From a virus: a DNA stretch of 64,000 bases. The position numbers and the translations under genes are program-made. The stretch lies in IMG/VR virus record IMGVR_UViG_3300025131_000005. One strand, 5' to 3'. This document shows, piece by piece, positions 1,783 to 61,817 of this stretch. Under the pieces are notes generated by a model, which worked only from the letters and a program-made list of their open reading frames with translations, made no database searches and had not been told where the DNA came from. Every line of letters begins with the position of its first letter. The first letter of the stretch is position 1.

Positions 1783-2340
1783 CTATTTTCGAACATTTAT
1801 GCGATCGGAGACCATTAAAATTTCGGGGTATTTATCTCCCAAAAGTGCCACAATATCGACATTTTGTTGAGAATCATCTAAAAATAACACATCATCAGCC
1901 CCTGATTTGATGCGATCTTCGATCCAATTGGCTTTTTCTTGTGGATTTGGGTCCTCTAGTCCCACAATTTTTATTTTTGAGGTATCAATACCAATACTTT
2001 TCAACCAGCCTCTGATTGCCGGTGCTGCTTTTTGTGATCTAGCAGTCAAAATAACGATTTCTCGTTCTCCTTCTGCCTCAACAGCGCCTCGTAAGCGCTT
2101 TACAACCGATTTTATCTGCACAGGGTTGATAACTTCATCAAATTGGCTAAAATCATATTCATTTTCATACGGTTTGTACTCATGATCGGCAAATTCTTCT
2201 GGAGTAAACTCTTCTGAGGTATTGTCCGGATAAACAACTACTACTTTCGAATCAGAGACAGCTAATGTATCATCAAAATCAAAAACACGAAGCTTTGATT
2301 CATTTATATACTCTCGCCAATTTTCAAATAGAAGTTTCAT
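1783..2340 (-). CDS. HAD-superfamily phosphatase with MKLLFENWREYINE leader
   Basis: RVFDFDDTL (DxDxT), ILTAR, K, FLDD motifs. Confidence 0.75.
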   Translation of the reverse strand: MKLLFENWREYINESKLRVFDFDDTLAVSDSKVVVVYPDNTSEEFTPEEFADHEYKPYENEYDFSQFDEVINPVQIKSVVKRLRGAVEAEGEREIVILTARSQKAAPAIRGWLKSIGIDTSKIKIVGLEDPNPQEKANWIEDRIKSGADDVLFLDDSQQNVDIVALLGDKYPEILMVSDRINVRK

Positions 2341-2345
2341 TCCTC
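2308..2345 (-). repeat. Leader repeat A, copy 1
   Basis: 37/38 nt identical to 2882-2919; spans GAGGA-ATG and the codons for MKLLFENWREY. Confidence 0.95.
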
Positions 2346-2543
2346 ATCTTCCGTAGTTTTAAACGTCTTACATTCACAAATAGTTCTACCATCATCAGTT
2401 CTTGCGTAGTCTAAATCGATATTTTCAGCGTAACAGAACTTGTTTTTGTTAAAAATGCAATCTACGCACAAACAAGAGCAAGTCACTTGCGGTAATTCTT
2501 CTTCAGAAATTAAATCTCGCCATTTTTCAAGTAATAGTTTCAT
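2337..2543 (-). CDS. Small Cys-rich protein (DUF1540-like) with MKLLLEKWR leader
   Basis: CSCLCVDCIFNKNKFCYAENI pattern; ATGA overlap with the next gene. Confidence 0.6.
   Translation of the reverse strand: MKLLLEKWRDLISEEELPQVTCSCLCVDCIFNKNKFCYAENIDLDYARTDDGRTICECKTFKTTEDEE
2517..2543 (-). repeat. Leader repeat B, copy 1
   Basis: 27/27 nt identical to 3151-3177 (ATGAAACTATTACTTGAAAAATGGCGA). Confidence 0.95.
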
Positions 2544-2545
2544 CT

Positions 2546-2914
2546 TTAAGCCTCCAAAGGTGTTAAATATACTGGGAATTCTTTTATTCCTAGCTTTTTA
2601 GCTGCTTCTAATCGATGGTGACCATTTAGAACAAAATAAACTGGTTCTGATATACCTGATTTCGCCGCTTTTGGCTGATCATCGATTCTGTGTGGGTTAA
2701 CTGGCGCTTGATTACAAACTTCTAGAGGCTCTAGAATTCCTTGTTGTATTTGTTGCATTTTATCTTGAACAATGTTTTCGCACTCTTGACTTGGACAATC
2801 ATGATCTTTTCCATGGCCCATTTCCTCAGAAGGAACTAATAAATTAACGTCGACATAAAAAACTTTCTTATTTTCTTTCACATACTCTCGCCAATTTTCA
2901 AATAGGAGTTTCAT
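2546..2914 (-). CDS. ParB/sulfiredoxin-like domain protein with MKLLFENWREY leader
   Basis: VLNGHHRLEAAKKLG is the ParB/Srx GHxR motif. Confidence 0.75.
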   Translation of the reverse strand: MKLLFENWREYVKENKKVFYVDVNLLVPSEEMGHGKDHDCPSQECENIVQDKMQQIQQGILEPLEVCNQAPVNPHRIDDQPKAAKSGISEPVYFVLNGHHRLEAAKKLGIKEFPVYLTPLEA

Positions 2915-2919
2915 TCCTC
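2882..2919 (-). repeat. Leader repeat A, copy 2
   Basis: 37/38 nt identical to 2308-2345. Confidence 0.95.
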
Positions 2920-3177
2920 TTCCGCCGAAGGGAATAATACATTCAACATTTCATCGATTTCGTTAAATGCTTCAAATTGTTCTGGGGGCCAATCGTCGGC
3001 GGATCCATATACTTCTTTCATACGTTCACTAATGAATTTTTCGATATCGTTTGCTATTACCCCATTTTTTATTAAAAACATTCTATGGGATTTCTTTTCC
3101 TCCGCGCTTTTCCACGGACCTCGAACAACATCCCCTTCTTTTAGGCGTTTTCGCCATTTTTCAAGTAATAGTTTCAT
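2911..3177 (-). CDS. Hypothetical protein with MKLLLEKWR leader
   Basis: Start placed at the leader ATG (3177) rather than the ORF-track 3204; ends EEE* overlapping the next ATG. Confidence 0.65.
   Translation of the reverse strand: MKLLLEKWRKRLKEGDVVRGPWKSAEEKKSHRMFLIKNGVIANDIEKFISERMKEVYGSADDWPPEQFEAFNEIDEMLNVLFPSAEEE
3151..3177 (-). repeat. Leader repeat B, copy 2
   Basis: 27/27 nt identical to 2517-2543. Confidence 0.95.
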
Positions 3178-3187
3178 TTTATATTTC

Positions 3188-4246
3188 CTATCGAGGTAAG
3201 CCACCTAATAATGTAATTGCGATTAAGCCTGGTGCCCCCGGCTTTACATAAACACCAGAAAATAACGTTTCTGTGCGCCCACCAACATAAGAAATAGCAG
3301 CATCTAAATGTTGGCTGATGGCTGGATCGTTTGCCATTTCCGGAGGCATCACCAAGAGCATTGCTCCAATTTTTGATTTACCAACAGTTGTGGGACATGG
3401 AGATCTTTTTACACAATTTTGAAGTATTTTTGCTCCAAGATCTGGAATATTGGGATCTTTAATCAGTGTCGTGCCAATAAGCATTCTCTTTTCTGCCTCC
3501 AGGCATCTTTCTAGATCTTTTGAGTCAAATGACTGAATTGAGGACTTTTCTGAAGCCAATTTAAGAGTTTGGCTGAACAACTTTGCAAAAGCAGTATTTG
3601 CTGTTGGAAGCATATTAACCAATCCTACTTTACCTCGAAGAAACTTGATTTGTCTCTCATTATCTAAGATAATATGGGGAGAATCCATAACATCATTTGC
3701 CAATACCATAGCATTTTTTGCTATAGTGCCGTTTAATAGCTCCTGAGCGTTCGGGAAGGTCATAATGTAGAATACCTTGCCTTCTGCCCCAACTGCTCTT
3801 AAATAGCGCTTAAACACGTCGTCTAGGGCAAAACATGCACTACCCGTGCCTCCACCCCCGCCTGCGAGGACAAAAAGCCAATCAACCTTACCAAGTTTTG
3901 TTCTGAGGGCATCTTCGACAACAGCGCTGTTCTGGCTGAAGGCACTTTTCCCAACTTCAACGTTTTTGGCAACTCCGTCAGCGTCTGGAATAAGAACCAT
4001 GTTTTTAGGATCAACATTTTCCGGTTGATCTTTGGGAGTTGTATTGATCAGAAGAGTTTTGTTAAAGCCGAGATCCAAAAATGCTTTGGCCAATTTGCCG
4101 CCTCCTCCACCAACACCAATAAAAGCGCAATTTAGGGCGCACTCCACAGTATTGTCTTCTAACATATCTTCATTTTTGATTTCTTCAGAATCATCGTAAT
4201 GATCTACAAAATCAAAATCATCAAATTCATTTTCATCGTTATTCAT
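3188..4246 (-). CDS. Tubulin/FtsZ-superfamily GTPase (phage tubulin, PhuZ/TubZ-like role possible)
   Basis: T1 loop FIGVGGGGGK, INT, signature-like AGGGGGTGS, TFP..E, LDNE, T7-like SFDSKD; acidic N-terminal extension; no FtsZ-type C-terminal linker. Confidence 0.9.
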   Translation of the reverse strand: MNNDENEFDDFDFVDHYDDSEEIKNEDMLEDNTVECALNCAFIGVGGGGGKLAKAFLDLGFNKTLLINTTPKDQPENVDPKNMVLIPDADGVAKNVEVGKSAFSQNSAVVEDALRTKLGKVDWLFVLAGGGGGTGSACFALDDVFKRYLRAVGAEGKVFYIMTFPNAQELLNGTIAKNAMVLANDVMDSPHIILDNERQIKFLRGKVGLVNMLPTANTAFAKLFSQTLKLASEKSSIQSFDSKDLERCLEAEKRMLIGTTLIKDPNIPDLGAKILQNCVKRSPCPTTVGKSKIGAMLLVMPPEMANDPAISQHLDAAISYVGGRTETLFSGVYVKPGAPGLIAITLLGGLPR

Positions 4247-4526
4247 CTTTATCTCCTTTTGTTGATGTATATTTTTTAAGAGGGTCGCGGGCGGTGTTTC
4301 TTACAAGCGCATCAAAATCCTTCTTTAGTTGTTCAAGATCCGGATTATACGTTTGTTTATAAACTTTTTTACGCGGATTCTTTGCTCGTTTAGTCTGCAA
4401 GACTAGTTTTTTCATTGTCGATTTATTGGGATACTCTTTTTCTTCAGCTGCTTCCTGCATGATAGCATAGGTATTCTTAATTTCTTCTTCAATAATCTCT
4501 TTCAATTTTTGTTTTGTAATCTTCAT
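4239..4526 (-). CDS. Hypothetical protein with MKITKQKLKEIIEEE leader
   Basis: ATG at 4526 overlaps the upstream stop (ATGA). Confidence 0.6.
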   Translation of the reverse strand: MKITKQKLKEIIEEEIKNTYAIMQEAAEEKEYPNKSTMKKLVLQTKRAKNPRKKVYKQTYNPDLEQLKKDFDALVRNTARDPLKKYTSTKGDKDE

Positions 4527-6772
4527 TTGAACATATTTCCCCATTTCGTAAATAATTTTAGATTTTCTTTAGATTCTGACATCAAATCGGATAATTCTTC
4601 TACATCTTTCATATCTTTTCTTATTTGAGGAACAATCACTTTTTGTATTTTGTTATTAACTAGACCTTCGAGAAGCTCGCGAGTATACTCTAAAAACTTT
4701 GGTTTGTCGAGGATTTTTATAAATCTTTCAATAGCATTTACTTCTTCTTCAGTATTTTCCCTTACTTGAATATCTAGAGCGTAGCCAAAAGTTAAATGAT
4801 CGGATATCTTATGGGGAAACGCCGGTCCGCCGCCTTTGGGCATCGATCCACCTTTATCTGTTGTTAGCCACAAAGTTACATTGTTTACAGGTACTTGGAC
4901 GCCTTCTTCTTCTGAAAGGGGGAGTTCCATTTGTTTAGTGGCTGCTTGATATACTTTTTCAAATACTCCTTGGAGGTGTTTAAGGAATTCATTTTTTATT
5001 TCAAGGTTTATATGTTTGCCGATCTGTATCATTATCTTATTATAAAATGCTTTTTCTTCGTCAGTGGGGGCGCTTTTTGATGCATCGATGATTTCTGGTG
5101 GGAGCAAGATCTGAATGGGTAGTTGCGTGCTTAACTCAACCTCTGTACCTTCTGGTGTAACCTCAAAATGATCTAGCTCTAAGTCCTCAAAGCGTTTTGA
5201 CATATCTTTGATGGTTTGCCCCACTATCAAACCTGATTCTCTGAATGCTTCTAAAATTTCTTCGTATATTGCTTCGTATTTTTCTTCTAGTGTAACATTT
5301 TCCTCAACAAAGGAACGGAACTCATCCATTGTTGATCCACCGTAAGTGTAAGTGTCGGAAGGAGTAAAGTTAGCGGACACCTCAACTGAACCTCTCCAAT
5401 CGTTAACATCAAGTTCCTCTGGATAAAAATAGTTGTTGTCTAATGCTTTCTCAATGATATCTTTCATATCATCAGTATCTGGATCTTCTACCATATCGTC
5501 AACATCAGAAAAATCAAATGATGTTGAGGAGTTAAAATAATATTTACCCTCATCATATTCGTCGACATTGATGTGAACGCGTGACCATTCATATTCATCT
5601 ATAATATTTTGGAATTCTTCTAGGGTGGGACCGGCTGGATTTTCTTCAAAGTGACCTCCAGCGTATCCCGTTATTTCGCTCAACTCTTCCGATACTTTTT
5701 CATCAAACGTTTCGATAGCGATCTGTATTTGCTGTTCTGGGCTCAAATCTTCATCGGGCTCAGCCTCAATACCCAATGCTTCAAAGGCAACTTTTACATC
5801 TCTGGGAATTTCTAAGGTGTCTTGATTGTAGAACTCAGTACGCCATGTATCAAAATGAGTTTGAAGTTGCTCCTTTCCTGTTTTAAAGTAGCTAGTCTTT
5901 TTATCGCCTTTAAGTTTTTTGCCGACATCAGCAAGACTGGAATCCATAAATCCTTTCGCCAACAGGTTCTCTTTGATTGCTTCTTCTAAACCACCGTATC
6001 CAACTTCATCATCTGCAGCATCATATATTTCTTCTGGTTCATAATCACTTCCTGGACCGTATACCAAAGCCATTTTTTTATTATCGCTATCTTGCGGGAG
6101 ATGCTTGAAGAGGGCCATATAAAAAGCTTTTCCTTCGCCTGAGTACTGGTTAAAGTAATTTTGTGAGGTTGTAGACGAGATACACCACTTCGTGCCTCTG
6201 CCGTAATAACAAGAGCCTTCTGGGCTATAGGGGCGTACCATCATAACATCATCAGTATCCATTACTACTTCGCTGGTTTCTTTTGCGCCCTTTTCTAATT
6301 TGCGCATCGTTTCTCTTTCATTAAATTCTTTTTCTGCATTATATACTTGATGCTCGAAGTCGCCCAAATCTTTAAACTTATCAATATTTTTATCAATCAA
6401 GTTCATAGAAGCAAATTTGTGATACTTGGGTAAGGTGCTTGCTATTCTTCTCGTATAGTGTCTTATATTATCTTCTATATCGCGGACATCTACCTCTCTA
6501 TCATACTCTTTAGCCTCGCCCTCTGCATTTTTTATATACTGCATCACTCTGGAGTTGAGGCGACGAGCAGCCCATCCTAAATATTTTTGATTGCCCGAGG
6601 GATCAGCTTCTATGATAGTATCAAGAAGTTTTTCCAATTCTTTTGCAACCTGCTCGTATTTAACATTTTTTACAACGGCTTTTTTAGCGTCTTCTTTACG
6701 ACCTTCAATGAGAAGCACTTCCTCATCTTCGGATAAAAACTTGCGCCATCTTTCAAATAATAGCTTACTCAT
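4523..6772 (-). CDS. Large acidic hypothetical protein with MSKLLFERWRKFLSE leader
   Basis: 749-codon ORF from ATG 6772; DPSGNQKY and SCYYGRGTKWCIS motifs; function not recognised. Confidence 0.7.
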   Translation of the reverse strand: MSKLLFERWRKFLSEDEEVLLIEGRKEDAKKAVVKNVKYEQVAKELEKLLDTIIEADPSGNQKYLGWAARRLNSRVMQYIKNAEGEAKEYDREVDVRDIEDNIRHYTRRIASTLPKYHKFASMNLIDKNIDKFKDLGDFEHQVYNAEKEFNERETMRKLEKGAKETSEVVMDTDDVMMVRPYSPEGSCYYGRGTKWCISSTTSQNYFNQYSGEGKAFYMALFKHLPQDSDNKKMALVYGPGSDYEPEEIYDAADDEVGYGGLEEAIKENLLAKGFMDSSLADVGKKLKGDKKTSYFKTGKEQLQTHFDTWRTEFYNQDTLEIPRDVKVAFEALGIEAEPDEDLSPEQQIQIAIETFDEKVSEELSEITGYAGGHFEENPAGPTLEEFQNIIDEYEWSRVHINVDEYDEGKYYFNSSTSFDFSDVDDMVEDPDTDDMKDIIEKALDNNYFYPEELDVNDWRGSVEVSANFTPSDTYTYGGSTMDEFRSFVEENVTLEEKYEAIYEEILEAFRESGLIVGQTIKDMSKRFEDLELDHFEVTPEGTEVELSTQLPIQILLPPEIIDASKSAPTDEEKAFYNKIMIQIGKHINLEIKNEFLKHLQGVFEKVYQAATKQMELPLSEEEGVQVPVNNVTLWLTTDKGGSMPKGGGPAFPHKISDHLTFGYALDIQVRENTEEEVNAIERFIKILDKPKFLEYTRELLEGLVNNKIQKVIVPQIRKDMKDVEELSDLMSESKENLKLFTKWGNMFK

Positions 6773-6808
6773 ACAAAACTCCAATTGGAATGAAACGATT
6801 AATCATCA

Positions 6809-6816
6809 TAAATAGT
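6809..6816 (-). promoter_or_regulatory. Candidate late-promoter motif ACTATTTA
   Basis: Intergenic, about 37 nt before ATG 6772; the same octamer precedes the gp25-like gene at 59590. Confidence 0.45.
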
Positions 6817-6821
6817 AAGAT

Positions 6822-7469
6822 TTAAAGAGAAAATACCCTTATCATGCCTTTTGTTACATCAATCATTCTAGTGTGAGCCGGCGTCCATCCGTGATATTTA
6901 GGACCTTCGTGGTCTGGGTCTCCATGTCCTTGGCGAGTTTGTGCACGAATAGCTAAATGAACCAGTTCGTGGATAAATGCTGTCTCTGATATTTCTTCCT
7001 TTTCTCCCTTATAAACCCATATTGTTGTCGGACCCATAACACGACCAATAATATTGTGGTTTGTAAATTTCTTACCGTCGAGAAAGAAACCTCGCTTCGA
7101 AACTTTAACCTTTTCGCCCCATTCGATCATAACTTTACGGAGAAGTTCTTTTACAGAATAATCATAGTCACCAAAATTCTCCACCCAATTATAATAAAAT
7201 AATGTCATAGCAAGAGACACTCTATGATTAGGATATATATCACATCGGGTTACAATCTGTGTGGCATATTTAAAATAAGGTATCATTATCATTTGAGGAA
7301 AGGGCTTACTAGAATCACACTGTGATAAAATCTTTCGCACCTTTTCAAAGGTAGCATTAGTAGAGGGGGGCATATTAACTCCATGACCCGAACAAGTTAG
7401 AGTGATTAACGATAAAAACAACACTATCAACACCTTTCTCACCTTGTTTCTTCTCCCACCTATTTGCAA
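6822..7469 (-). CDS. Putative lipoprotein with zincin HExxH motif
   Basis: RKVLIVLFLSLITLTC signal/lipobox-like segment; FIHELVH followed by GHGDPDHE. Confidence 0.6.
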   Translation of the reverse strand: MQIGGRRNKVRKVLIVLFLSLITLTCSGHGVNMPPSTNATFEKVRKILSQCDSSKPFPQMIMIPYFKYATQIVTRCDIYPNHRVSLAMTLFYYNWVENFGDYDYSVKELLRKVMIEWGEKVKVSKRGFFLDGKKFTNHNIIGRVMGPTTIWVYKGEKEEISETAFIHELVHLAIRAQTRQGHGDPDHEGPKYHGWTPAHTRMIDVTKGMIRVFSL

Positions 7470-9475
7470 ATCTCATTAAATATTTCCATTAAATTGTTAT
7501 ACATATCAGTCGGATTGCTAGTGAGCATATAATTCTTTCCATTTCCTGCATCCGATAAATCGGTCCATGATTGTATTGTATTTTTTGAAAACGTGTATAG
7601 TTTAAGTTGGGGGGTGCCGCCAATTGCGGTGATAACATCTTGCTCAGTTAACTGAGGCACTAAGTAACTCTGAGGGGGTTCATCACTAAAAACGATTACA
7701 ATACGATCAGCTCCTGCGCGCCAACTAACTTTAAAATCTTGTAAAGGAGGTATTGATTCTTTAACTCCCCATGGTTGAGTACTGTATACTCCGCTTTCTC
7801 CTTTCCATACCATATCACTAATATTATAGTTAATAGTGGCGCTAATATTACGAAGCGATAAGTATACAGCGTCTAGAATCATCTCATAAGAAGTTTGCAT
7901 CGCTGCCCAATTGGTACCTAACTGTCCCATAGAAGTAAGGAATTCAGTAAACCCGACCAGATTTTGGTGCAATTCTAAACGTTCATCTTGAGATCCGAAT
8001 GTTTCGAAAACATCCAATGGTCCACGAATTAAAGCCCAATTAATAACTTCTTCATCGCTAAAATTAGCAGCAAATTGATTTAACGCTATCATAACGGCGT
8101 CGATTTCATCAGCCATTGAACCGGACCAATCTACAATGAAAAGAATATCTGTATCGGGTATTTCTTCACCCCAATCCGTTTCACCGTCACAATCATCGTC
8201 TAGACCGTTGCAAAGTTCTTCTTGAGGAGTTACTTCTTCTTTACAATAATAAGGAATAAAAGCGCCTTCTTCAGAATCATTACCCCAAATACCTTTATCA
8301 CAATACATTTCTCCAGGTTTGCATTCTCCGGCGTATAAGGTCCCTTCGGGTCCTGTATAACATCCAGAAAACAAATCTTCATCAATTAGTTGATTGCAGT
8401 TATCATCAAAATTATTACACTCTTCCTTTTCTAGTTCCATTCCTATGAGCGGATCACATACAGTTTGAGGATTCGGGGGGAAATGATGACAAATAGCATA
8501 GCAGGGAGTTGTTATAATTGTTTTGCATTCAGGATCTAAACATTCGCAAGTTTTATATCCTTGACCACATAGGAGAGGCGATTCTTGACATGGAAATAGA
8601 GATCCTACATCTTGTATAGTACAAATACATTCAAGACCTTCGTCGACTTGTCCATTGCAGTTATTATCTAGTCCATCGCAAATTTCATCTAATTCTGGTG
8701 GGGCCGTACAAGATATCCAATTACCACTTTCACATATTTCTACCCCATTTCCACAAGCAGTAGCACATGGTTGAAAAAGCTCTTCATCTGTTAATCCATC
8801 GCAATCATCATCATAAGCGTTGCACTCTTCTGAGGGGATGGTTCCGCATTCATTACAATCATTTAATTGTTCTTCATCTGTAAATCCATCGCAGTCATCA
8901 TCAAGTTCGTTACAGGTTTCTTCTGGGATTTCTTCACAATCATTACAAGCATTTAAAACACCTTCATCTATTTCACCATCGCAGTCATTGTCAATATAAT
9001 CGCAAGTTTCTTCTACACAATCTGTAATACAATCTGTATATTGAATTTTTCCTTTATTACAAACTTTTTCTACAACGCCAGCGTATCCATCATCAGTTGT
9101 GCATTCTAAAAAGTCAATATGATATTGTGATGGGTCACATTCCATATATTCTTCACATTCACCTTCGGAATGCAATGTGGGGGGATTATCACACATGTTT
9201 AAACAAATTTCTTTTTGCCATATAGCATCTAGAGGTGGACAAAAATACCATTTGCACTCGACACATTCTTCAAGAGGAGGAGAAATATCTTCTTCTACCC
9301 ATGGAGTCCAACGTACTGCATCATCAGAAAAAATATCTTCTTGTTCGGTGTAGGTATTTTCGTCAGAAAAAAAAGATCCATCGCTGCCGGAGGTATTAGA
9401 ACAATTAACAGCCGATGCGCCGATAAAAATTATCAACAGTGTCAGTCGCGTGATTGTTTTAATATTGTTTTTCAT
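7460..9475 (-). CDS. Putative lipoprotein with Cys/Asp 'CDGxDNDCDGxxDE' repeats and C-terminal vWA domain
   Basis: Signal ending AVNC; six repeats such as CDYIDNDCDGEIDEG and CDGLDNNCNGQVDEG; MIDAS motif IVDWSGSM; VFSDE. Confidence 0.8.
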   Translation of the reverse strand: MKNNIKTITRLTLLIIFIGASAVNCSNTSGSDGSFFSDENTYTEQEDIFSDDAVRWTPWVEEDISPPLEECVECKWYFCPPLDAIWQKEICLNMCDNPPTLHSEGECEEYMECDPSQYHIDFLECTTDDGYAGVVEKVCNKGKIQYTDCITDCVEETCDYIDNDCDGEIDEGVLNACNDCEEIPEETCNELDDDCDGFTDEEQLNDCNECGTIPSEECNAYDDDCDGLTDEELFQPCATACGNGVEICESGNWISCTAPPELDEICDGLDNNCNGQVDEGLECICTIQDVGSLFPCQESPLLCGQGYKTCECLDPECKTIITTPCYAICHHFPPNPQTVCDPLIGMELEKEECNNFDDNCNQLIDEDLFSGCYTGPEGTLYAGECKPGEMYCDKGIWGNDSEEGAFIPYYCKEEVTPQEELCNGLDDDCDGETDWGEEIPDTDILFIVDWSGSMADEIDAVMIALNQFAANFSDEEVINWALIRGPLDVFETFGSQDERLELHQNLVGFTEFLTSMGQLGTNWAAMQTSYEMILDAVYLSLRNISATINYNISDMVWKGESGVYSTQPWGVKESIPPLQDFKVSWRAGADRIVIVFSDEPPQSYLVPQLTEQDVITAIGGTPQLKLYTFSKNTIQSWTDLSDAGNGKNYMLTSNPTDMYNNLMEIFNEICK

Positions 9476-45010: not shown

Positions 45011-45419
45011 TTCTTTAATACTCAATTCTTTTTTGTTGATTTATTTGTTTGGATTACTTCCTTTTTTATTATTTTTGTCTGTGTTATTCAATGTCGTTAG
45101 TGTAGTTTATATGTATTTTTTACTACATGAGAGAATAAATGTTCAAAATGATTTTTCTTCACTTTTGTTGAGGAGTGAAAATTTTCTCGACCACGTGAAG
45201 AGCATTTACGAATTAGAGATGTTTTACGGAGATGAGACATTGGAATCTCTTATTATTCATTCGAAAGAATTAGTTAATGATTTTTATGAACATGAGGATA
45301 AACACTACACTCCGGAAACAGAAGACCCCCAGGAAGAATATGATAATGATAGAACAGAAAACCAAGAAGAGCCGCTCGACGACTCGCAAGAAAAACCAAT
45401 ATTTCACCAAAGTTCATGA
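44982..45419 (+). CDS. Membrane protein
   Basis: Two N-terminal hydrophobic helices and an acidic tail. Confidence 0.6.
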   Translation: MLILQIFLISSLILNSFLLIYLFGLLPFLLFLSVLFNVVSVVYMYFLLHERINVQNDFSSLLLRSENFLDHVKSIYELEMFYGDETLESLIIHSKELVNDFYEHEDKHYTPETEDPQEEYDNDRTENQEEPLDDSQEKPIFHQSS

Positions 45420-46056
45420 AGAAGCAATAATAGAATATGCTTTAACAGATTCTCGAAAAATTCGCACAGATCTTTATGTGAATTTTATTGGACCGGCTTT
45501 TGATGAAATGGTGGATAAAATTGTATACACTTATAAGTTTACTACTCTTCCAAATATTGATTATTTGAAAGATGATTGCAAGATTTGGCTTACAACGATA
45601 TTGGATAAGTACGACCCCAATAGGAAATCTAAAGCTTTTTCATATTTTAGTGTTATAACAAAAAACTGGTTTATCCACAAAGTAAAGAAAAATTCTAAAA
45701 AACTTCAAAGAGAATATTGCATAGATGATTTTAAAGCCGATAGTGCTAACGAGAACTTAGTTGTAGAGAATGATTATCTTGAGAGAAGAGAACAAGCGGA
45801 ATTTTTAGGTTTTTTATTTCAAGAGATAGAAAGATGGGAAGAATTTGATCTTAAAGAAAATGAAAGAAAAGTATTAGAATCAATTAAGATATTATTTGAG
45901 TCCGCAGATGACATTGATATTTTTAACAAAAAAGCTATTTACTTATACATTCGGGAAATTACAGGTTTAAACACTAAACAAGTTGTTAACAACCTGAATA
46001 AGATTCGACTTAAATATAGGGCTTTTAAAAATCGATGGGAAAAGGACGAACTATAA
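45340..46056 (+). CDS. T4 gp55-like late sigma factor
   Basis: YFT..HEEAI; DKYDPNRKSKAFSYFSVITKNWF resembles gp55 region 2; C-terminal helix-turn-helix-like YLYIREITG. Confidence 0.65.
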   Translation: MIMIEQKTKKSRSTTRKKNQYFTKVHEEAIIEYALTDSRKIRTDLYVNFIGPAFDEMVDKIVYTYKFTTLPNIDYLKDDCKIWLTTILDKYDPNRKSKAFSYFSVITKNWFIHKVKKNSKKLQREYCIDDFKADSANENLVVENDYLERREQAEFLGFLFQEIERWEEFDLKENERKVLESIKILFESADDIDIFNKKAIYLYIREITGLNTKQVVNNLNKIRLKYRAFKNRWEKDEL

Positions 46057-50137: not shown

Positions 50138-53100
50138 ATGGCAGATATTATAGGACTAACAGATGAGGGGCTTCTGACTTCTGACGCTTTTGATTTTTGG
50201 GATCAGCCAAAAGCTGCAGCTCTTTTTCAGAAAATCAGCGGGCCGCCACCAGATGGCGCTGGCGCACATGCTTATAATCCAGAAACCAGCCAACTTCTAA
50301 TTAGTGATTCCGCAGATTTTAATGAGATTTCTACTCTAACAATCCCATTAGATGAAGAAGGAAAAGTTAATGTATATTTGGGTATCGTGGAGGGCAACCA
50401 TACCGTTGAAGAGTCTTTATATGATAATGATGCTTTTAAAAATCCCGCTACTCACTCTCCTGCTTTCAAAAATAATGGATTTCTAACACTTTATTATTTG
50501 GTACGTACCACAGTCGATATGGGTGTACCCTTTAATACGGAAAATGTCTTAAAAAGCGTATTGGGGGATAAATATGAACAATTTACAACAACATCTATAA
50601 CTGATGCATCTTCTGCAACTCTAAGTTTTGAAATAGATATTTCAACAATTTCAGTGAATTTCGAGCCTATCGATGAACCGGACATCCCCGCACCTCGTAC
50701 AATCTCTCATTTGGATTTTGTAGCTTTCATCTCGAAATATCCACACGTATATACTTTGGGGCAAGATAGGATAAACGCCCTTCAATTGCTCACGGAGAAT
50801 GATGGTCCACCTAACAGCACTACCTTAATAACAGTAGAGTCCGACGAATTCAAACCATCAGAAGTCTCGCGCTGGCAACCTATTCAGAAATCCCAAGCTA
50901 CCCATTATGTATATTTTGGCACACCCGGTACTCCAGATGTAGATGATAAATATGCGACAATGCGAACTGGCTATATTAAAACAACCAACAATAATAGCTC
51001 TATAACGAAAAAACAGGATATTTTCGAAGCTAGTACTGGAAATTATGCGATTTTTAAGGGCGCACCCATAATAGGTCGTCTTCCAAATGGGGCACAGGTT
51101 CAAGTAGTAAGGGAGGGTTTTGGTAAAGGAGCTTTATTTTCTCAATTTAAACTCAAGTATTATCCAAAGAATCATGAACATACTTTTATAAAGTCAGGAT
51201 ATCCTAAATTTATTGACTCTCGTACTTTAATGCCATTTGGAAATGTTTCGGAGAAGACTAATGAAGAATTTGACTTTTTAACTATACCAAAAATTGAAGT
51301 ACCAGAACCTGATCCTAATTTTATAGAACCTGATTGGACTCAGAAAGATGATTGTGAACCATGGCTGAATGAAAAGACAAATGAATATTGTATTATGTAC
51401 GAACATCGAGGCAAAAATCTTCCTGGTACGTCTGACAAGGAGATGATTAGAAGGAAAGGAGTTATCAGGCTCTTGTCATACTACGACAAAAAAAGATCTC
51501 CTGGATTTGTTGACAAACTTCTTGAACTTAACAATGGTCTATTCGCCAGAATAGTTGAGGAATCTTCTAGTTCTAGAAAAGACAAAACTTATAAATTTCT
51601 AATAGGAATTCCTCGAACTTATTTTGAGCATCCATTTTTGGATGTTAATCCTTATCGTATTGATAATCCAAGCCTAGAGAAACTATCCACTGAACACAAG
51701 AAAATAGATTATTGGTGGGTGATTAAAACAAACAAGATAGAAAAATGGATCGATGATACAATAAGAGTTGTTTCTAGAGATTTCAAAAAACGACTTTCTA
51801 AAGCTAATTCGCAATTAGATCCAAAATTTATTGTCAATATGGAAGTGGAGAACTTAAAAAAATTCCTTCCTGCCTTAAAAGAATTTATGTTTCTTAATGA
51901 TGCAACATTGCAAACCGATAGAGCGGATGGTTTGATATTTGGTTTTGATTTCAGACATAGGCTTAAAATGGTGTTATATCAGCAGACAAATTATGAGCCA
52001 CCAAATAAGAAACTTGTTGTAATGTCGAAAAAGAAGAGTAAAAGTGGACGACAAAAAACACAAGAAGGTCCATCGCGCTATTTGGGCATAAGTCTTCCTT
52101 GTTTTCGTAATCCTAATAAAAATCCTGGTTGCTCCCCACGTACTCTTGCTTATTTGCGTTTTGGACAAGATATGCAATCAGCAGTAGAGTCTGACAAATA
52201 TCCTGGCTTAGAGCTTGTATTGAAGTATACAATAGGTCCAGAAATCAGCTTATTCCCTTCAGCACCGAAAAAACAAGAAGAAGGACTATCCTCCGAAGAA
52301 ATAAGTGATAAAGTACAAACCATATTTGATAACAAGCCAAAAAGTGGCGATAAAACAATTAAAACAGAAAAAGAGCTAAAAGAAGAAACTAAAAAATTAA
52401 TCAATCCCGCAAAAAGAGCGAAGACCTATAATAGCAGGAAAGATGTTAGAATAAATAATTTTGATACTGCATTATCTGAGATGGAAAAGATATTCGATGG
52501 CGCTGTTGATTCGAAAGGTTATTATAAGCGCATCCTTAATATAATTGATATTAAAAATCTTATTTCTGTTGCTTATACATGCTTAGGTAAAGTATTGCCT
52601 GTTAACGATCTTAAGGCACTTATTCGTAAAAATGTTTTAAAAACAATTGGTTATGAAAATCTTAAAGCTTTTGTAGAAATTCTTGCAGAGAAAAAGTATT
52701 TGGAAGAAGTGTGCCCGAACTTGATTCCCTTTGGTGTTGATCCTAACACCACCACCGCAGCTTCCGCTAATTTTGGAGAAGAAGGGACTCCTCCACCGGG
52801 GTTAACCGATACTAAAGTTAGTGAGGATGATGAAGAAGCTGCAGCGCCCAAAGGATTGATGGAGGTAGTAAACGATGCTATAAAAAGTATAGAGGATGAT
52901 TATCTTTGCTATTCTAATGGAGAAATAAAGTCTGCTTTGGGTCCGGATTTTTCTAAGTCAATTGAATCATTAGATAATATTCCCGCCGACTTAAAAAATG
53001 CAAATATTTATGCAGCTGCAAAGCAAGATGCTGATTTCAGAACAAAACAACAAGAAAAACTTTTGCAAGAATTAAATGTAAGATTAGTTGATAAATTAGA

Positions 53101-59589: not shown

Positions 59590-59597
59590 ACTATTTA
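59590..59597 (+). promoter_or_regulatory. Candidate late-promoter motif ACTATTTA
   Basis: Directly before the GGAG RBS of the gp25-like gene. Confidence 0.5.
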
Positions 59598-59608
59598 GGA
59601 GATTAGAA

Positions 59609-59989
59609 ATGTATGGGATTGGTGCTAAATTACCACTATCAGTTGATAATGTTGATGGACATTTCGTTTTAATAAAAACATTAGTCGACGAAATAAAACA
59701 AAATCTATTTCATCTTATAATGACAAGTCCTGGCGAAAGAATAATGGATATTGATTTTGGTGTTGGTATAAGAAATTTTCTGTTTGAGCAGATGGTATCC
59801 CAAACAGAAGGAAGAATTGAATCCCGAATTTTAAGCCAAGTGGGGAAGTATATACCATTTATTGTGATAAATGATATACGTTTTGATTCAAATGACTATG
59901 AAAACTTATTAGGTATTGCAATTGTTTATCGAATTCCCAATCTTGGAAAGAGTGATACATTGAGATTGGATTTCGCTGAAAATAACTAA
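59609..59989 (+). CDS. Baseplate wedge protein, T4 gp25-like
   Basis: IKQNL..LIMTSPGERIMD.DFGVGI..FLFE. Confidence 0.9.
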   Translation: MYGIGAKLPLSVDNVDGHFVLIKTLVDEIKQNLFHLIMTSPGERIMDIDFGVGIRNFLFEQMVSQTEGRIESRILSQVGKYIPFIVINDIRFDSNDYENLLGIAIVYRIPNLGKSDTLRLDFAENN

Positions 59990-59992
59990 TTA
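59985..59992 (+). promoter_or_regulatory. Candidate late-promoter motif ACTAATTA
   Basis: About 20 nt before the gp6-like start and its GAGGT RBS. Confidence 0.4.
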
Positions 59993-60011
59993 ATATTGTT
60001 GAGGTATTAAC

Positions 60012-61817
60012 ATGGCAGTCAAAAAAACCGAAGAACTAGCAATCGACTATACTGCAAGAGACTTTACGTCGATTAGAAACGAATTAACAAGCTATGTCAA
60101 AAGATATTACGCAGATTCGTATAAAGATTTTAATGAAGCTTCCTTTGGTTCAATGATGCTCGATCTTGTTTCTTATGTGGGAGATATGTTATCTTTTTAT
60201 CTTGATTACCAAGCAAATGAATCTTTTCTTCGAACGGCTTTAGAATTTGATAATATCGTCAAGATTGCCAAGCAGATGGGATATAATTACAATGGTGTTC
60301 CTACATCTCATGGAGAAGTATCCTTTTTTATATTGGTACCAGCTAATTCTGTGGGCAGCGGTCCCGATACTAGATATTGCCCAGTTTTAAAAAGAGGATC
60401 GATAGTAGGTGCACCGGGGGGCTCAGTTTTTACCTTGGCACAAGATGTCAATTTTGCATCTAGTACAAATATTGTTGTCGGTACAGTTGATAATAGTACA
60501 GGAATTCCATTAACTTATGCTATCAAACAAACTGGTAGAGTTATTTCTGGTGAATTAGATGCGTATGAAACAACAATTGGAATTTACGAGAAGTTTTTGA
60601 GGGTGGAAGTACCGGGTGGGCGTATAATATCAGAAATTATTTCTGTCCATGATTCGAATGGTAACCAATATTTTGAAGTAGATTATTTGTCACAAGATGT
60701 TATCTATAAAGAGATAAGAAATCCAAATACGACATCTTCGGATTTAGCACCCTCAATATTTAAACCCGCTGCGGTACCTCGTCGATTTGTGGTCGATAGA
60801 ACCCCTAATCAACTATTTTTACAATTTGGTCATGGCAGCGAATCAGAAATAAAAACAGATCCAATAGCTGAACCAAGTAAAACTATTTTAAATTTACATG
60901 GTAGAGATTTTACCACTGATTTAACTTTTGATCCCTCTAATCTTATTAGTAGTGATAAATTGGGAGTTTCTCCTGCTAACACAACCCTGACAGTTATTTA
61001 TCGAAAGAGCACGGCCCAGACGTTGAATGCACCTGTTGGGACTATAACCCAAATTATCGATCCAAGAATAGAGTTTCAAAATCGTTTTAATCTAAATACA
61101 TCGCTAATTTCTAGTACTGAAAGTAGTTTGGAATGTTTGAATGAAGATTCTTTGGTAGGAGATAATGTTAATATAACTTCGGAAGAAGTTAAACAACGAG
61201 CTTACGGTGCATTTCATAATCAAAATAGAGCTGTTACTAAGCAAGATTACAAGACGTTGATTTATTCAATGCCGGAAAGATTTGGCAGTATATCACGATG
61301 CTCAATAGTGAGAGATAATGATTCTTTTAAGAGAAATTTAAATTTATTTATTTTATCTAAAGATAAGAATGGTGATTTCACTACATCTAATCAGACTATT
61401 AAACAAAATTTAAAATTCTGGTTAAATAAATATAGAATGATAAATGATTCTATTGATATATTAAATGGACGAATTATTAATTTTGGGGTAGAGTTTGAAG
61501 TTTTAAGTGAAAATAACGTTAATAATTATACTGTCTTACAGCGATGTTATTCTGCATTACAAGATTTATTCTCCACCAAAGCAAGTATGGGTGAACACTT
61601 AGTCATAACCACAATATATAAAAAGCTTAATGCAGTGGTTGGTGTAGCAGATACTACCGATGTTAAGATAGTGCGTAAATTGGGAACAAATTATTCTAGT
61701 TCTGCATATGATATCGCGAGCAATATTTCGGCAGATAAAAGGTATCTAAAATTACCCATTGACGCAGTGTATGAATTTAAATTTCCAAATTCAGATTTCA
61801 AGGGCGTTGTTTTATAA
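60012..61817 (+). CDS. Baseplate wedge protein, T4 gp6/baseplate-J-like
   Basis: DYTARDF.SIR..L, DFNEAS.G.M.LDL.SYVGD, NES, QNRAVT..DY. Confidence 0.9.
   Translation: MAVKKTEELAIDYTARDFTSIRNELTSYVKRYYADSYKDFNEASFGSMMLDLVSYVGDMLSFYLDYQANESFLRTALEFDNIVKIAKQMGYNYNGVPTSHGEVSFFILVPANSVGSGPDTRYCPVLKRGSIVGAPGGSVFTLAQDVNFASSTNIVVGTVDNSTGIPLTYAIKQTGRVISGELDAYETTIGIYEKFLRVEVPGGRIISEIISVHDSNGNQYFEVDYLSQDVIYKEIRNPNTTSSDLAPSIFKPAAVPRRFVVDRTPNQLFLQFGHGSESEIKTDPIAEPSKTILNLHGRDFTTDLTFDPSNLISSDKLGVSPANTTLTVIYRKSTAQTLNAPVGTITQIIDPRIEFQNRFNLNTSLISSTESSLECLNEDSLVGDNVNITSEEVKQRAYGAFHNQNRAVTKQDYKTLIYSMPERFGSISRCSIVRDNDSFKRNLNLFILSKDKNGDFTTSNQTIKQNLKFWLNKYRMINDSIDILNGRIINFGVEFEVLSENNVNNYTVLQRCYSALQDLFSTKASMGEHLVITTIYKKLNAVVGVADTTDVKIVRKLGTNYSSSAYDIASNISADKRYLKLPIDAVYEFKFPNSDFKGVVL

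What the first reader, a model, noticed from the sequence alone, without database searches (positions are those of the whole stretch)
3188..4246. Tubulin/FtsZ homolog in a phage with T4-type transcription and baseplate
Seen: clear tubulin-family motifs, a variant signature GGGTGSA (canonical GGGTG[S/T]G), an acidic ~30-aa N-terminal arm and almost no C-terminal tail. The window also holds gp55-, gp6- and gp25-like genes, and no chimallin or multisubunit RNAP was recognised. Established: PhuZ spindles are known from nucleus-forming jumbo phages, and PhuZ needs its C-terminal tail to polymerise. Inference: a distinct phage tubulin lineage with different filament contacts, or an inhibitor of host FtsZ.
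Basis: partly seen in the sequence, partly recalled or inferred. Interest (0 to 1): 0.72.

Follow-up and report, generated by a model that had tools for sequence, protein, structure and literature searches.

The report
Tail-less, N-armed tubulin of marine phages
An uncultured ~200-kb marine T4-like phage encodes an intact tubulin/FtsZ-type filament GTPase from a large, virus-only, apparently undescribed family whose conserved interaction peptide sits at the front of the protein instead of the back, which suggests that phages without a "phage nucleus" also build their own cytoskeleton.

Summary
Window 3188-4246 (minus strand) encodes a 352-aa tubulin/FtsZ-superfamily protein. It has complete GTP-binding loops, an intact T7 catalytic pair (D241, D244), the variant signature GGGTGSA, an acidic N-terminal arm and no C-terminal tail.

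It is neither PhuZ nor a captured FtsZ:
- BLASTP gives E>=25 to PhuZ and E 2.7 to E. coli FtsZ, and the FtsZ equivalog model scores 21 bits against a 295-bit cutoff.
- No deposited phage genome carries a relative.
- Chimallin and phiKZ-type RNA polymerase are absent from the window and from three complete relatives, although both are found in the positive controls. Those relatives carry a T4 gp23-type capsid gene.

The protein belongs to a monophyletic, long-stemmed family with more than 1000 sequence clusters in marine metagenomes and 191 IMG/VR loci. Only 5 MAG contigs among 185,579 species genomes carry it. The closest characterised proteins are plasmid/phage TubZ and archaeal CetZ, at about 18-24% identity.

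The family hallmark is an almost invariant N-terminal peptide, F-D-F-V/I-D/E-H-Y, placed a fixed 25-26 residues before the core. No gene is a constant neighbour. The same phages carry a second, degenerate tubulin-fold gene beside their DNA polymerase and SSB genes.

Best reading: a self-polymerising phage cytoskeletal GTPase that uses its N-arm in place of a tail. Its cellular role is inferred, not shown. This scan has met related tail-less phage tubulins before, on other genomes.

The parts
3188..4246 (-). Gene for the 352-aa tubulin/FtsZ-superfamily GTPase (N-armed, tail-less phage tubulin)
   Evidence: ORF; PF00091; PDB sequence hits; AF2 model and fold matches; more than 1000 homologs
4196..4222 (-). 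Codons for residues 9-17, DDFDFVDHY: the family-defining N-terminal acidic/aromatic peptide
   Evidence: F11, F13, H16 and Y17 are invariant in A1. The motif is present in 168 of 187 members, always 25-26 residues before the T1 loop. This region is disordered in the AF2 model.
4094..4117 (-). T1 (phosphate-binding) loop, G44-K51, GVGGGGGK
   Evidence: Aligns with E. coli FtsZ GVGGGGGN; present in 99.5% of the family
3836..3862 (-). T4 tubulin signature, G129-A137, GGGGGTGSA (variant: the last Gly is replaced by Ala/Ser)
   Evidence: T134/G135 align with E. coli FtsZ T108/G109; GGGTGS[AS] in 96% of members, canonical GGGTGSG in 0%
3653..3664 (-). DNER (195-198) after strand S6, resembling the tubulin-type DNE motif (the resemblance is recalled, not tested); N196 aligns with FtsZ N165
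   Evidence: DNE[RK] in 94% of the family; D-N is shared with the nearest phage lineages and c-st TubZ
3506..3529 (-). T7 (synergy/catalytic) loop, F240-R247, FDSKDLER; D241 and D244 align with E. coli FtsZ D209 and D212
   Evidence: invariant in A1 and A3; FD[ST]xDL-type motif in 97% of the family
4253..4258 (-). Shine-Dalgarno AAGGAG, 6 nt upstream of the ATG
   Evidence: Sequence read
4239..4544 (-). Upstream 101-aa basic ORF with an MKITK...IIEEE leader; its last codons and stop overlap the tubulin ATG (translational coupling). Not conserved across the family
   Evidence: no Pfam family
4523..6784 (-). 753-aa protein of unknown function heading the local gene string; shared only with the closest relatives
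2911..3204 (-). Downstream 97-aa ORF that overlaps the tubulin stop by 17 nt; found only in this window among 82 loci
2546..2914 (-). 122-aa leader-bearing protein with an NGHHRLEAAKKLG motif, a possible ParB/Srx-fold protein, two genes downstream of the tubulin
   Evidence: Motif read. Only a weak PDB hit, to free serine kinase (E 0.006), which I recall as ParB/Srx-fold (not tested). No Pfam hit. Larger DGHHRW proteins lie within 2 genes of the tubulin in about 21 of 82 loci.
45277..46056 (+). Context: weak gp55-like late sigma factor
   Evidence: phrog_234, E 1.2e-4
59609..61817 (+). Context: gp25-like and gp6-like baseplate wedge genes
   Evidence: phrog_261/phrog_43 and phrog_219

Best explanation
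The gene encodes an active, self-polymerising tubulin/FtsZ-superfamily GTPase. It belongs to a large lineage found only in viruses: marine T4-like myophages of about 185-205 kb that form no phage nucleus and appear to depend on the host RNA polymerase. Subunits should stack head to tail, with the T7 loop (D241, D244) of one subunit completing the GTP site (T1-T6 loops) of the next, so that GTP hydrolysis makes the filaments dynamic. FtsZ, TubZ and PhuZ use a C-terminal tail to bind partners or neighbouring subunits. This family has lost that tail and carries instead a short conserved acidic/aromatic peptide, F-D-F-V/I-D/E-H-Y, at a fixed distance in front of the core. That peptide is the likely tether to a partner or to the next subunit. 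The filaments most likely organise the infected cell, for example by positioning replicating phage DNA or assembly sites. Shown here: fold, motif integrity, family boundaries, virus-only distribution, and the absence of nucleus-phage hallmarks. Inferred: polymerisation, the role of the N-arm, and the cellular function.
For: Full two-domain tubulin/FtsZ fold. All nucleotide-binding loops and both T7 acidic residues align with E. coli FtsZ landmarks and are nearly invariant across 187 members. That pattern fits purifying selection on a polymerisation-coupled GTPase. The family is monophyletic (100/100) and distinct from FtsZ and PhuZ. It has more than 1000 90%-identity clusters and 191 IMG/VR loci, but only 5 MAG contigs among 185,579 species genomes. 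The nearest lineages also sit on huge-phage contigs, and the ESM Atlas neighbour clusters are 87-100% viral. The N-terminal motif occurs in 168 of 187 members at a fixed 25-26-residue spacing, and the C-tail is 0-14 residues. The nearest outgroups also carry an acidic/hydrophobic N-terminal peptide. Complete relatives have a gp23-type capsid gene but no chimallin and no RNAP beta-like gene, while the phiKZ/201phi2-1 controls are positive for the latter two.
Against: No experiment or multimer model shows polymerisation. The N-arm is low-confidence in the AF2 model (pLDDT ~30), so its docking site is unknown. No conserved partner gene lies nearby to suggest what is being moved. The signature's last Gly is replaced by Ala/Ser, and the effect on GTP binding is untested, although the 3ZID CetZ-like protein has Ser at that position. 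The host is unknown.
Confidence: 0.6

Rival explanations
1. TubZ-like genome partition. The filament segregates or positions the phage chromosome, for example during a carrier or pseudolysogenic state, through a DNA-binding adaptor that grips the N-terminal peptide. The adaptor could be the ParB/Srx-like protein often found nearby.
For: TubZ is the top structural match (Z 32.8). c-st TubZ is the only characterised reference with a BLASTP hit below E 1e-3 (24% identity, E 6e-5). The sister-group proteins hit Bacillus TubZ/RepX best. A ~320-aa DGHHRW (ParB/Srx-motif) protein lies within two genes of the tubulin in about 21 of 82 loci, while only 22 of 1176 ORFs carry the motif overall. The window has an NGHHR protein two genes downstream.
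Against: There is no TubR-like small gene or fixed operon partner in 82 loci. About three quarters of the loci lack the ParB-like neighbour. The ParB assignment is weak (Pfam ParBc_2 E 0.058; PDB E 0.006 to a serine kinase). The C-terminal tail that TubZ uses to bind TubR is absent. These look like lytic T4-type phages.
Confidence: 0.15
2. Host cell-division interference. The protein poisons, caps or replaces host FtsZ, or titrates FtsZ partners, to stop division and enlarge the infected cell.
For: Phages commonly block FtsZ with small proteins such as lambda Kil and T7 Gp0.4 (papers listed). The fold is shared with FtsZ. The protein lacks the FtsZ linker and C-terminal peptide, so it could not itself recruit the division machinery.
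Against: There is no significant sequence similarity to bacterial FtsZ, including Flavobacteriales FtsZ (E 2.7 to 91), so conserved longitudinal contacts for co-polymerisation are unlikely. Both interfaces and the catalytic T7 residues are conserved, whereas a capper needs only one face. The N-terminal motif does not resemble the C-terminal peptides of the FtsZ references examined.
Confidence: 0.1
3. Two-tubulin system. The catalytic N-armed tubulin works together with the second, degenerate tubulin-fold protein (Tub2), as a heteropolymer or as a filament-plus-nucleator pair linked to the replisome.
For: Tub2 is present in all 5 large relatives searched and, according to scan note e1-5809334, in this genome. 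Its model is a confident two-domain tubulin/FtsZ fold. It always lies between a mini-PolA and a gp32-like SSB gene.
Against: The two genes lie 36-56 kb apart in different modules (and note e1-5809334). They share no detectable sequence similarity beyond the T1 loop (hhalign probability 1.6%). Tub2's GTP signature is degenerate. Co-occurrence in 5 genomes that were selected through the first gene is weak evidence.
Confidence: 0.08

Closest known systems
TubZ / RepX (type III partition GTPases of Bacillus plasmids pBtoxis/pXO1 and Clostridium phage c-st; PDB 4EI7, 2XKA, 3V3T, 4XCQ)
   Same: Best structural match (Z 32.8, rmsd 2.4 A over 316 residues). The alignment reaches into the N-arm (from model residue 23-29), which I read as matching TubZ's N-terminal helix (recalled, not tested). 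c-st TubZ is the only characterised reference with a BLASTP hit below E 1e-3. D-N after S6 and an acidic T7 pair are shared. Both are carried on a mobile replicon.
   Different: Only 16-24% identity. There is no C-terminal tail (0 residues against 55 in c-st TubZ). No TubR gene or centromere operon was found. A conserved N-terminal peptide is present instead. In the trees c-st TubZ groups with PhuZ, not with this family.
CetZ (archaeal cell-shape tubulins; PDB 3ZID from Methanosaeta thermophila, 4B45/4B46 from Haloferax volcanii)
   Same: 3ZID is the best sequence hit and the only near full-length one (E 1e-8, 37.6 bits). It is also the top Foldseek hit. CetZ2 scores Z 31.7. The last signature Gly is replaced by Ser in 3ZID too.
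   Different: About 19-21% identity. The H. volcanii CetZ1 and CetZ2 hits are N-domain only and score below FtsZ. The genomes here are those of viruses of bacteria: Shine-Dalgarno site, gp23-type capsid, PhoH and sigma factors. No CetZ sequences could be placed in the tree.
PhuZ (spindle tubulin of nucleus-forming Chimalliviridae; phiKZ gp39, 201phi2-1 gp59)
   Same: A phage-encoded tubulin-fold GTPase in a large myovirus, and the functional analogy for intracellular positioning.
   Different: No sequence similarity (E>=25; no PhuZ entry among PDB profile hits at E<=1). Poorer fold match (TM 0.49-0.59). The acidic C-terminal tail is absent. Chimallin and multisubunit RNAP are absent from relatives and from the window.
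Bacterial FtsZ
   Same: Fold (Z ~28). The T1 loop is identical apart from its last residue (GVGGGGGK here, GVGGGGGN in E. coli FtsZ). N165, D209 and D212 equivalents are present.
   Different: TIGR00065 scores 21 bits against a 295-bit cutoff. BLASTP is not significant. There is no linker or C-terminal peptide. FtsZ forms a separate 100/100 clade on a stem of 2.2 substitutions per site.

Membership tests
Tubulin/FtsZ superfamily | Two-domain fold: a Rossmann-like GTPase domain and a C-terminal domain joined by helix H7 | tested here: met
   AF2 pLDDT 78; Foldseek E 1e-20 to 1e-17; VIA Z 28-33 over ~290-316 residues
Tubulin/FtsZ superfamily | GTP-binding loops T1-T6 with the GGGTG[ST] signature, plus a T7 loop with acidic catalytic residues | tested here: met
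   GVGGGGGK, GGGGGTGSA, N196, D241 and D244 align with E. coli FtsZ landmarks. The last signature Gly is Ala/Ser family-wide.
PhuZ (Chimalliviridae spindle tubulin) | Sequence membership in the PhuZ clade | tested here: not met
   BLASTP E>=25. PhuZ forms its own 100/100 clade elsewhere in the tree. Fold TM is only 0.49-0.59.
PhuZ (Chimalliviridae spindle tubulin) | Acidic C-terminal tail required for filament assembly | tested here: not met
   0 residues after the last strand, against 32-33 in PhuZ
PhuZ (Chimalliviridae spindle tubulin) | Genome also encodes chimallin and phiKZ-type multisubunit RNAPs | tested here: not met
   Neither was found in complete relatives G002-G004, in G001 or in the window, while the phiKZ/201phi2-1 controls are positive. 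The rest of this window's own genome could not be searched.
TubZ (type III partition) | Operon with the DNA-binding adaptor TubR and the centromere tubC | tested here: not met
   No conserved neighbour in 82 loci; the -1 ORFs are heterogeneous
TubZ (type III partition) | Long C-terminal helix and flexible tail that bind TubR and tune assembly | tested here: not met
   The chain ends at the last strand, with 8-14 residues after the PGL[IV] strand family-wide
TubZ (type III partition) | Closest structural and sequence relationship | tested here: inconclusive
   Top VIA Z (32.8) and the only characterised-reference BLASTP hit below E 1e-3, and the sister group hits 4EI7 best. But in the trees c-st TubZ does not join this family, and the deep nodes are unresolved.
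CetZ (archaeal) | Phylogenetic placement in the archaeal CetZ clade | not tested
   No CetZ sequence could be fetched as a reference. There is only a PDB profile hit to 3ZID (37.6 bits) and weaker N-domain-only hits to H. volcanii CetZ1/2.
FtsZ | Match to the FtsZ equivalog model, and a linker plus conserved C-terminal peptide | tested here: not met
   TIGR00065 scores 21.3 bits against a 295.2-bit cutoff; no C-terminal extension

The most novel reading that the evidence does not exclude
Marine T4-like phages that lack a phage nucleus run their own two-part tubulin cytoskeleton. One part is a dynamic, catalytically competent filament-former whose partner-binding peptide has moved from the C- to the N-terminus. 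The other is a degenerate tubulin-fold protein wired into the replisome module (mini-PolA/SSB). Together they would organise replication factories or DNA delivery to capsids, giving a virus-only third class of phage tubulin system beside PhuZ and TubZRC.
Probability: 0.15. Interest if true: 0.8.

Novelty: new variant of a known kind. Interest (0 to 1): 0.62.

Why it matters
The papers I could search describe phage tubulins as two kinds only. PhuZ is tied to the phage nucleus. c-st-type TubZ is tied to prophage partition. One review even correlates phage tubulin with multisubunit RNAP (PMC7824862).

This family breaks that link. It is abundant in the ocean, it is carried by T4-type phages without chimallin or their own RNAP, and no sequenced phage isolate carries it. 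Its architecture is inverted relative to FtsZ, TubZ and PhuZ: the conserved peptide sits on an N-terminal arm and there is no C-tail.

If it polymerises, it extends virus-built cytoskeletons to a major group of marine phages. It would also give a natural experiment on how tubulin-family filaments can be tethered. The nearest lineages are also phage-borne, which points to a wide and unexplored radiation of viral tubulins.

Tried and rejected
- **PhuZ membership:** rejected.
- **Recent FtsZ capture:** rejected.
- **Relatives in cultured phages:** tblastn of the protein and megablast of 25 kb of the window against 50,697 phage records found nothing.
- **Window's own whole genome:** not held. The 193-kb Tara relative (L002) is not held either, so the genome-wide hallmark searches were run on IMG/VR relatives instead.
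- **Conserved operon partner:** clustering of flanking ORFs in 82 loci, a jackhmmer search from the 753-aa upstream protein, and inspection of the -1 ORFs found none.
- **Genome scan with the broad alignment A2:** The narrower A3 found only family members, so no archaeal CetZ references could be obtained for the tree.
- **Mixture-model tree of 101 rows:** did not finish on 1 CPU. LG+G4 trees were used instead, and the deep branching stays unresolved.
- **Promoter evidence:** ACTATTTA precedes both the 753-aa gene and the gp25-like gene, but it is not enriched (3 found against 5.3 expected). The sigma-70 consensus scan was uninformative.
- **FtsZ C-terminal-peptide mimicry by the N-arm:** no convincing resemblance to the FtsZ tails examined.
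- **Core-gene test with a gp6-like marker:** it returned mostly short contigs, so the test was not possible.
- **The two adjacent 962-aa ORFs:** they are not paralogs.
- **Literature:** five searches found no description of this family. Subscription journals are not covered.
Full report
**Observation.** The ORF at 3188-4246 lies on the minus strand. It starts with ATG and encodes 352 residues. An AAGGAG Shine-Dalgarno lies 6 nt upstream. The ATG overlaps the last codons and stop of a 101-aa upstream ORF, and the next ORF downstream overlaps the tubulin stop by 17 nt, so the gene sits in a tightly coupled leftward gene string.

Pfam Tubulin matches residues 41-166 at E 1e-5, below the gathering score. 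PDB sequence searches hit the CetZ-like protein 3ZID over residues 48-347 (E 3e-8), and FtsZ entries mainly over the N-domain. An AlphaFold model built from a 15-sequence family alignment has pLDDT 78 and pTM 0.77, with residues 1-33 disordered. It matches the whole tubulin/FtsZ fold. Foldseek gives E 1e-20 for 3ZID, then TubZ, FtsZ and CetZ1/2. VIA-align gives Z 32.8 for B. cereus TubZ, 31.7 for CetZ2, 30.6 for 3ZID and about 28 for FtsZ.

In a multiple alignment with references, GVGGGGGK aligns with the FtsZ T1 loop and GGGGGTGSA with the T4 signature. N196 aligns with E. coli FtsZ N165, and D241 and D244 align with the T7 residues D209 and D212. The chain ends with the last strand, whereas PhuZ has 32-33 further residues, c-st TubZ 55 and FtsZ 66-221.

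**The family.** The big protein search returned 1020 clusters at E<=1e-3. The top 120 are 64-98% identical, and many come from Tara and other marine metagenomes, on contigs up to 193 kb. An exhaustive profile search showed that the family collapses to three full-length 50%-identity representatives (380-546 bits). The score then drops sharply to about 136 bits for the next lineages.

Across 187 non-identical members:
- the signature is GGGTGS[A/S] in 96% and never GGGTGSG;
- DNE[R/K] is present in 94%;
- the T7 motif is present in 97%;
- only 8-14 residues follow the last strand;
- an N-terminal peptide F-[D/G]-F-[V/I]-[D/E]-H-Y is present in 168.

That peptide always lies 25-26 residues before the T1 loop. 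The sequence in front of it varies from 3 to 75 residues and is strongly acidic. The N-arm is thus a conserved, positioned element, not a random acidic extension. The nearest outgroups (24-31% identity) also begin with a short acidic/hydrophobic peptide and share D-N after S6 and the FDxxDL T7 motif.

**What it is not.**
- *Cultured phages.* tblastn against 50,697 deposited phage genomes found nothing at E<=1e-3, and 25 kb of the window has no megablast match there.
- *PhuZ and FtsZ by BLASTP.* The comparison gives E>=25 for PhuZ of phiKZ and 201phi2-1, and E 2.7 to 91 for FtsZ of E. coli and of the two Flavobacteriales MAGs. The Halobacteriovorax and Hyphomonadaceae FtsZ give no hit at E<=100. 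Only c-st TubZ scores, at E 6e-5 with 24% identity over 234 residues.
- *FtsZ model.* The FtsZ equivalog model scores 21 bits against a 295-bit cutoff.
- *Predicted PhuZ structures.* They are clearly poorer fold matches, with TM 0.49-0.59.
- *Trees.* In maximum-likelihood trees (101 rows, quick; 41 rows, careful; both LG+G4) the family is monophyletic with 100/100 support on a stem of 1.1-1.5 substitutions per site. Bacterial FtsZ and PhuZ are each closed 100/100 clades on stems above 2. The order of the deep branches is unresolved.

**Genome type.** No whole genome is held for the window, so I used relatives. A scan of IMG/VR with the family alignment found 191 loci. Among them are G002 (203 kb, direct terminal repeats), G003 (203 kb) and G004 (185 kb), all rated 100% complete.
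- The RNAP beta-like family PF00562 is found in the phiKZ and 201phi2-1 controls but not in G002-G004.
- Chimallin (201phi2-1 gp105) finds phiKZ gp54 at E 5e-138 and nothing in G001-G004.
- tblastn of chimallin and four phiKZ-type RNAP subunits against the window gives only noise.
- All three complete relatives carry a T4 gp23-type major capsid gene (E 1e-58 to 1e-62), which phiKZ lacks.
- The window has gp25- and gp6-like baseplate genes, PhoH, and a weak gp55-like late sigma.

Only 5 loci were found in 185,579 species-representative genomes. All are in MAGs: three loci in two Flavobacteriales bins, one in a Halobacteriovorax bin and one in a Hyphomonadaceae bin. Four are on contigs of 2.8-8 kb and one on a 101-kb contig. 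I read these as mis-binned phage DNA and, at most, a weak hint of a Flavobacteriales host. ESM Atlas neighbour clusters are 87-100% viral.

**Nearest relatives.** In the larger tree the sister set (97% SH-aLRT) is a group of unnamed proteins. Their best PDB sequence hit is B. cereus TubZ/RepX (E 1e-14 and 5e-12), followed by 3ZID. Two that I looked up lie on phage-like contigs, one of 375 kb, beside DnaB, ThyX and an intein-bearing PolA. Another outgroup sits on an 80-kb phage-like soil contig.

The family is therefore one long branch within a wider, largely phage-borne radiation that lies between plasmid/phage TubZ and archaeal CetZ-like proteins. I could not fetch CetZ sequences for the tree, so the CetZ relation rests on PDB profile and fold scores only. 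In those, the canonical Haloferax CetZ1/2 score below FtsZ in sequence but above it in structure.

**Neighbourhood.** I called ORFs in 82 loci and clustered them. No cluster is a constant neighbour: the commonest occurs in 32 loci at variable offsets, and most of this window's immediate neighbours are unique to it or shared only with its closest relative. A jackhmmer search from the 753-aa upstream protein found only close relatives. The -1 ORFs are heterogeneous, though several divergent loci have a small MKITK...IIKEE-leader protein there. There is thus no TubR-like adaptor operon.

The one recurrent neighbour with a recognisable motif is a ~320-aa protein carrying the ParB/Srx-type DGHHRW motif. 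It lies within two genes of the tubulin in about 21 of 82 loci, while only 22 of 1176 ORFs carry the motif. Its family assignment is weak, with Pfam ParBc_2 at E 0.058. The window has a 122-aa NGHHRLEAAKKLG protein two genes downstream. Its only hit is to a free serine kinase, at E 0.006, an enzyme I recall as ParB/Srx-fold (not tested). It has no Pfam hit.

**A second tubulin fold.** A scan note (e1-5809334) reports a divergent tubulin 52.5 kb upstream in this genome. I could not read that DNA. The same gene is present in all five large relatives (E 5e-72 to 5e-182), always between a ~395-aa mini-PolA and a gp32-like SSB gene. Its model is confident (pLDDT 84, pTM 0.85) and matches FtsZ and TubZ over both domains (E ~1e-13, TM 0.60-0.66). 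Its signature is degenerate, and it shares no detectable sequence similarity with the target beyond the T1 loop (hhalign probability 1.6%).

**Mechanism.** The strict conservation of both the nucleotide face and the T7 face argues for head-to-tail self-assembly with polymerisation-coupled GTP hydrolysis. A mere capper or decoy would not need both faces.

In the known bacterial, plasmid and phage tubulins, the C-terminal tail carries the partner-binding or inter-subunit contact. I recall this for the FtsZ C-terminal peptide, for the PhuZ acidic tail (the phage-tubulin paper PMC3401054, cited) and for the TubZ tail (PMC5322520, found). Here the tail is gone and a conserved peptide sits at a fixed distance on the N-terminal side. 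I infer that this peptide took over the tail's role.

What the filament moves or organises is not shown. I rank the readings as follows:
- positioning of phage DNA or assembly sites in a nucleus-less T4-type infection: 0.6, including the generic reading of a dynamic phage cytoskeleton;
- TubZ-like partition through a ParB/Srx-like adaptor: 0.15;
- interference with host FtsZ: 0.1;
- an obligate pair with Tub2: 0.08.

**Novelty and prior sightings.** Five literature searches found only PhuZ and c-st-type TubZ described as phage tubulins. One review links phage tubulin to multisubunit RNAP. Nothing matched this family, but subscription journals are not covered.

Within this scan, related tail-less, N-acidic phage tubulins were already noted on other genomes. 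They share only 5-6 of 180 sequence words with this protein. One follow-up (e1-5829442) reached a similar reading, with TubZ/RepX as the closest known family. My tests here were run independently and agree with it. I file the finding as a new variant of a known kind.

Noticed in passing
Relatives: L119:1501-2337:+ (G003), L118:1498-2397:- (G005), L120:1507-2370:-, L121:1459-2334:-, L122:1501-2352:+. In this genome about 52.5 kb before the window start, according to note e1-5809334: A second tubulin/FtsZ-fold protein of 278-299 aa with a degenerate GTP signature. It always lies between a ~395-aa mini-PolA and a gp32-like SSB gene, and it is present in all 5 large relatives. AF2 pLDDT 84; Foldseek E ~1e-13 to FtsZ and TubZ.
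   Followed up: yes
L029:4939-5907:+, L018:7647-8639:+ and about 19 further loci; window 2546-2914 (-): A ~320-aa protein with a ParB/Srx-type DGHHRW motif lies within two genes of the tubulin in about a quarter of family loci. In L054 and L059 it is part of an 871-1041 aa protein. The window has a 122-aa NGHHR version. Database support for the ParB assignment is weak.
   Followed up: partly
window 1783-4544 (-); L009, L070, L077, L085 (-1 ORFs): The genes flanking the tubulin begin with shared leaders (MKLL.E.WR.Y..E or MKITK..L..II.EE) on otherwise unrelated proteins. The MKITK-leader ORF recurs directly upstream of the tubulin in several divergent loci. The tubulin itself has no such leader.
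   Followed up: partly
window 7460-9475 (-): A 671-aa protein that starts with a hydrophobic, signal-like stretch (my reading of the sequence) and carries many Cys-rich D-x-D-C-D-G repeats (Pfam MopE-type metal-binding motif, E 3e-12). Its C-terminal part looks vWA-like to me, but no tool confirmed that. It is shared with the closest relatives only.
   Followed up: no
window 50138-59533 (+): A single 3131-aa ORF immediately upstream of the gp25/gp6-like baseplate genes. It is presumably a giant tail or baseplate-associated protein. Not analysed.
   Followed up: no
window 6809-6816 (-) and 59590-59597 (+): ACTATTTA lies about 25 nt upstream of the 753-aa gene that heads the tubulin's gene string, and about 12 nt upstream of the gp25-like baseplate gene. 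This may be a shared late-type promoter, but the motif is not enriched in the window (3 found against 5.3 expected).
   Followed up: partly
A2 alignment (P0150, P0155, P0158, P0162, P0175, P0176, P0185, P0187, P0199): The nearest phage-borne tubulin lineages start with short acidic/hydrophobic peptides containing D-[IL]-P (for example DLDIPDL, NDIPDIP) and end in short basic tails. The D-I-P core resembles the E. coli FtsZ C-terminal peptide DIPAFL. I also recall a similar D-D-D-I-P-F tip on bacterial SSB. None of this was tested.
   Followed up: no
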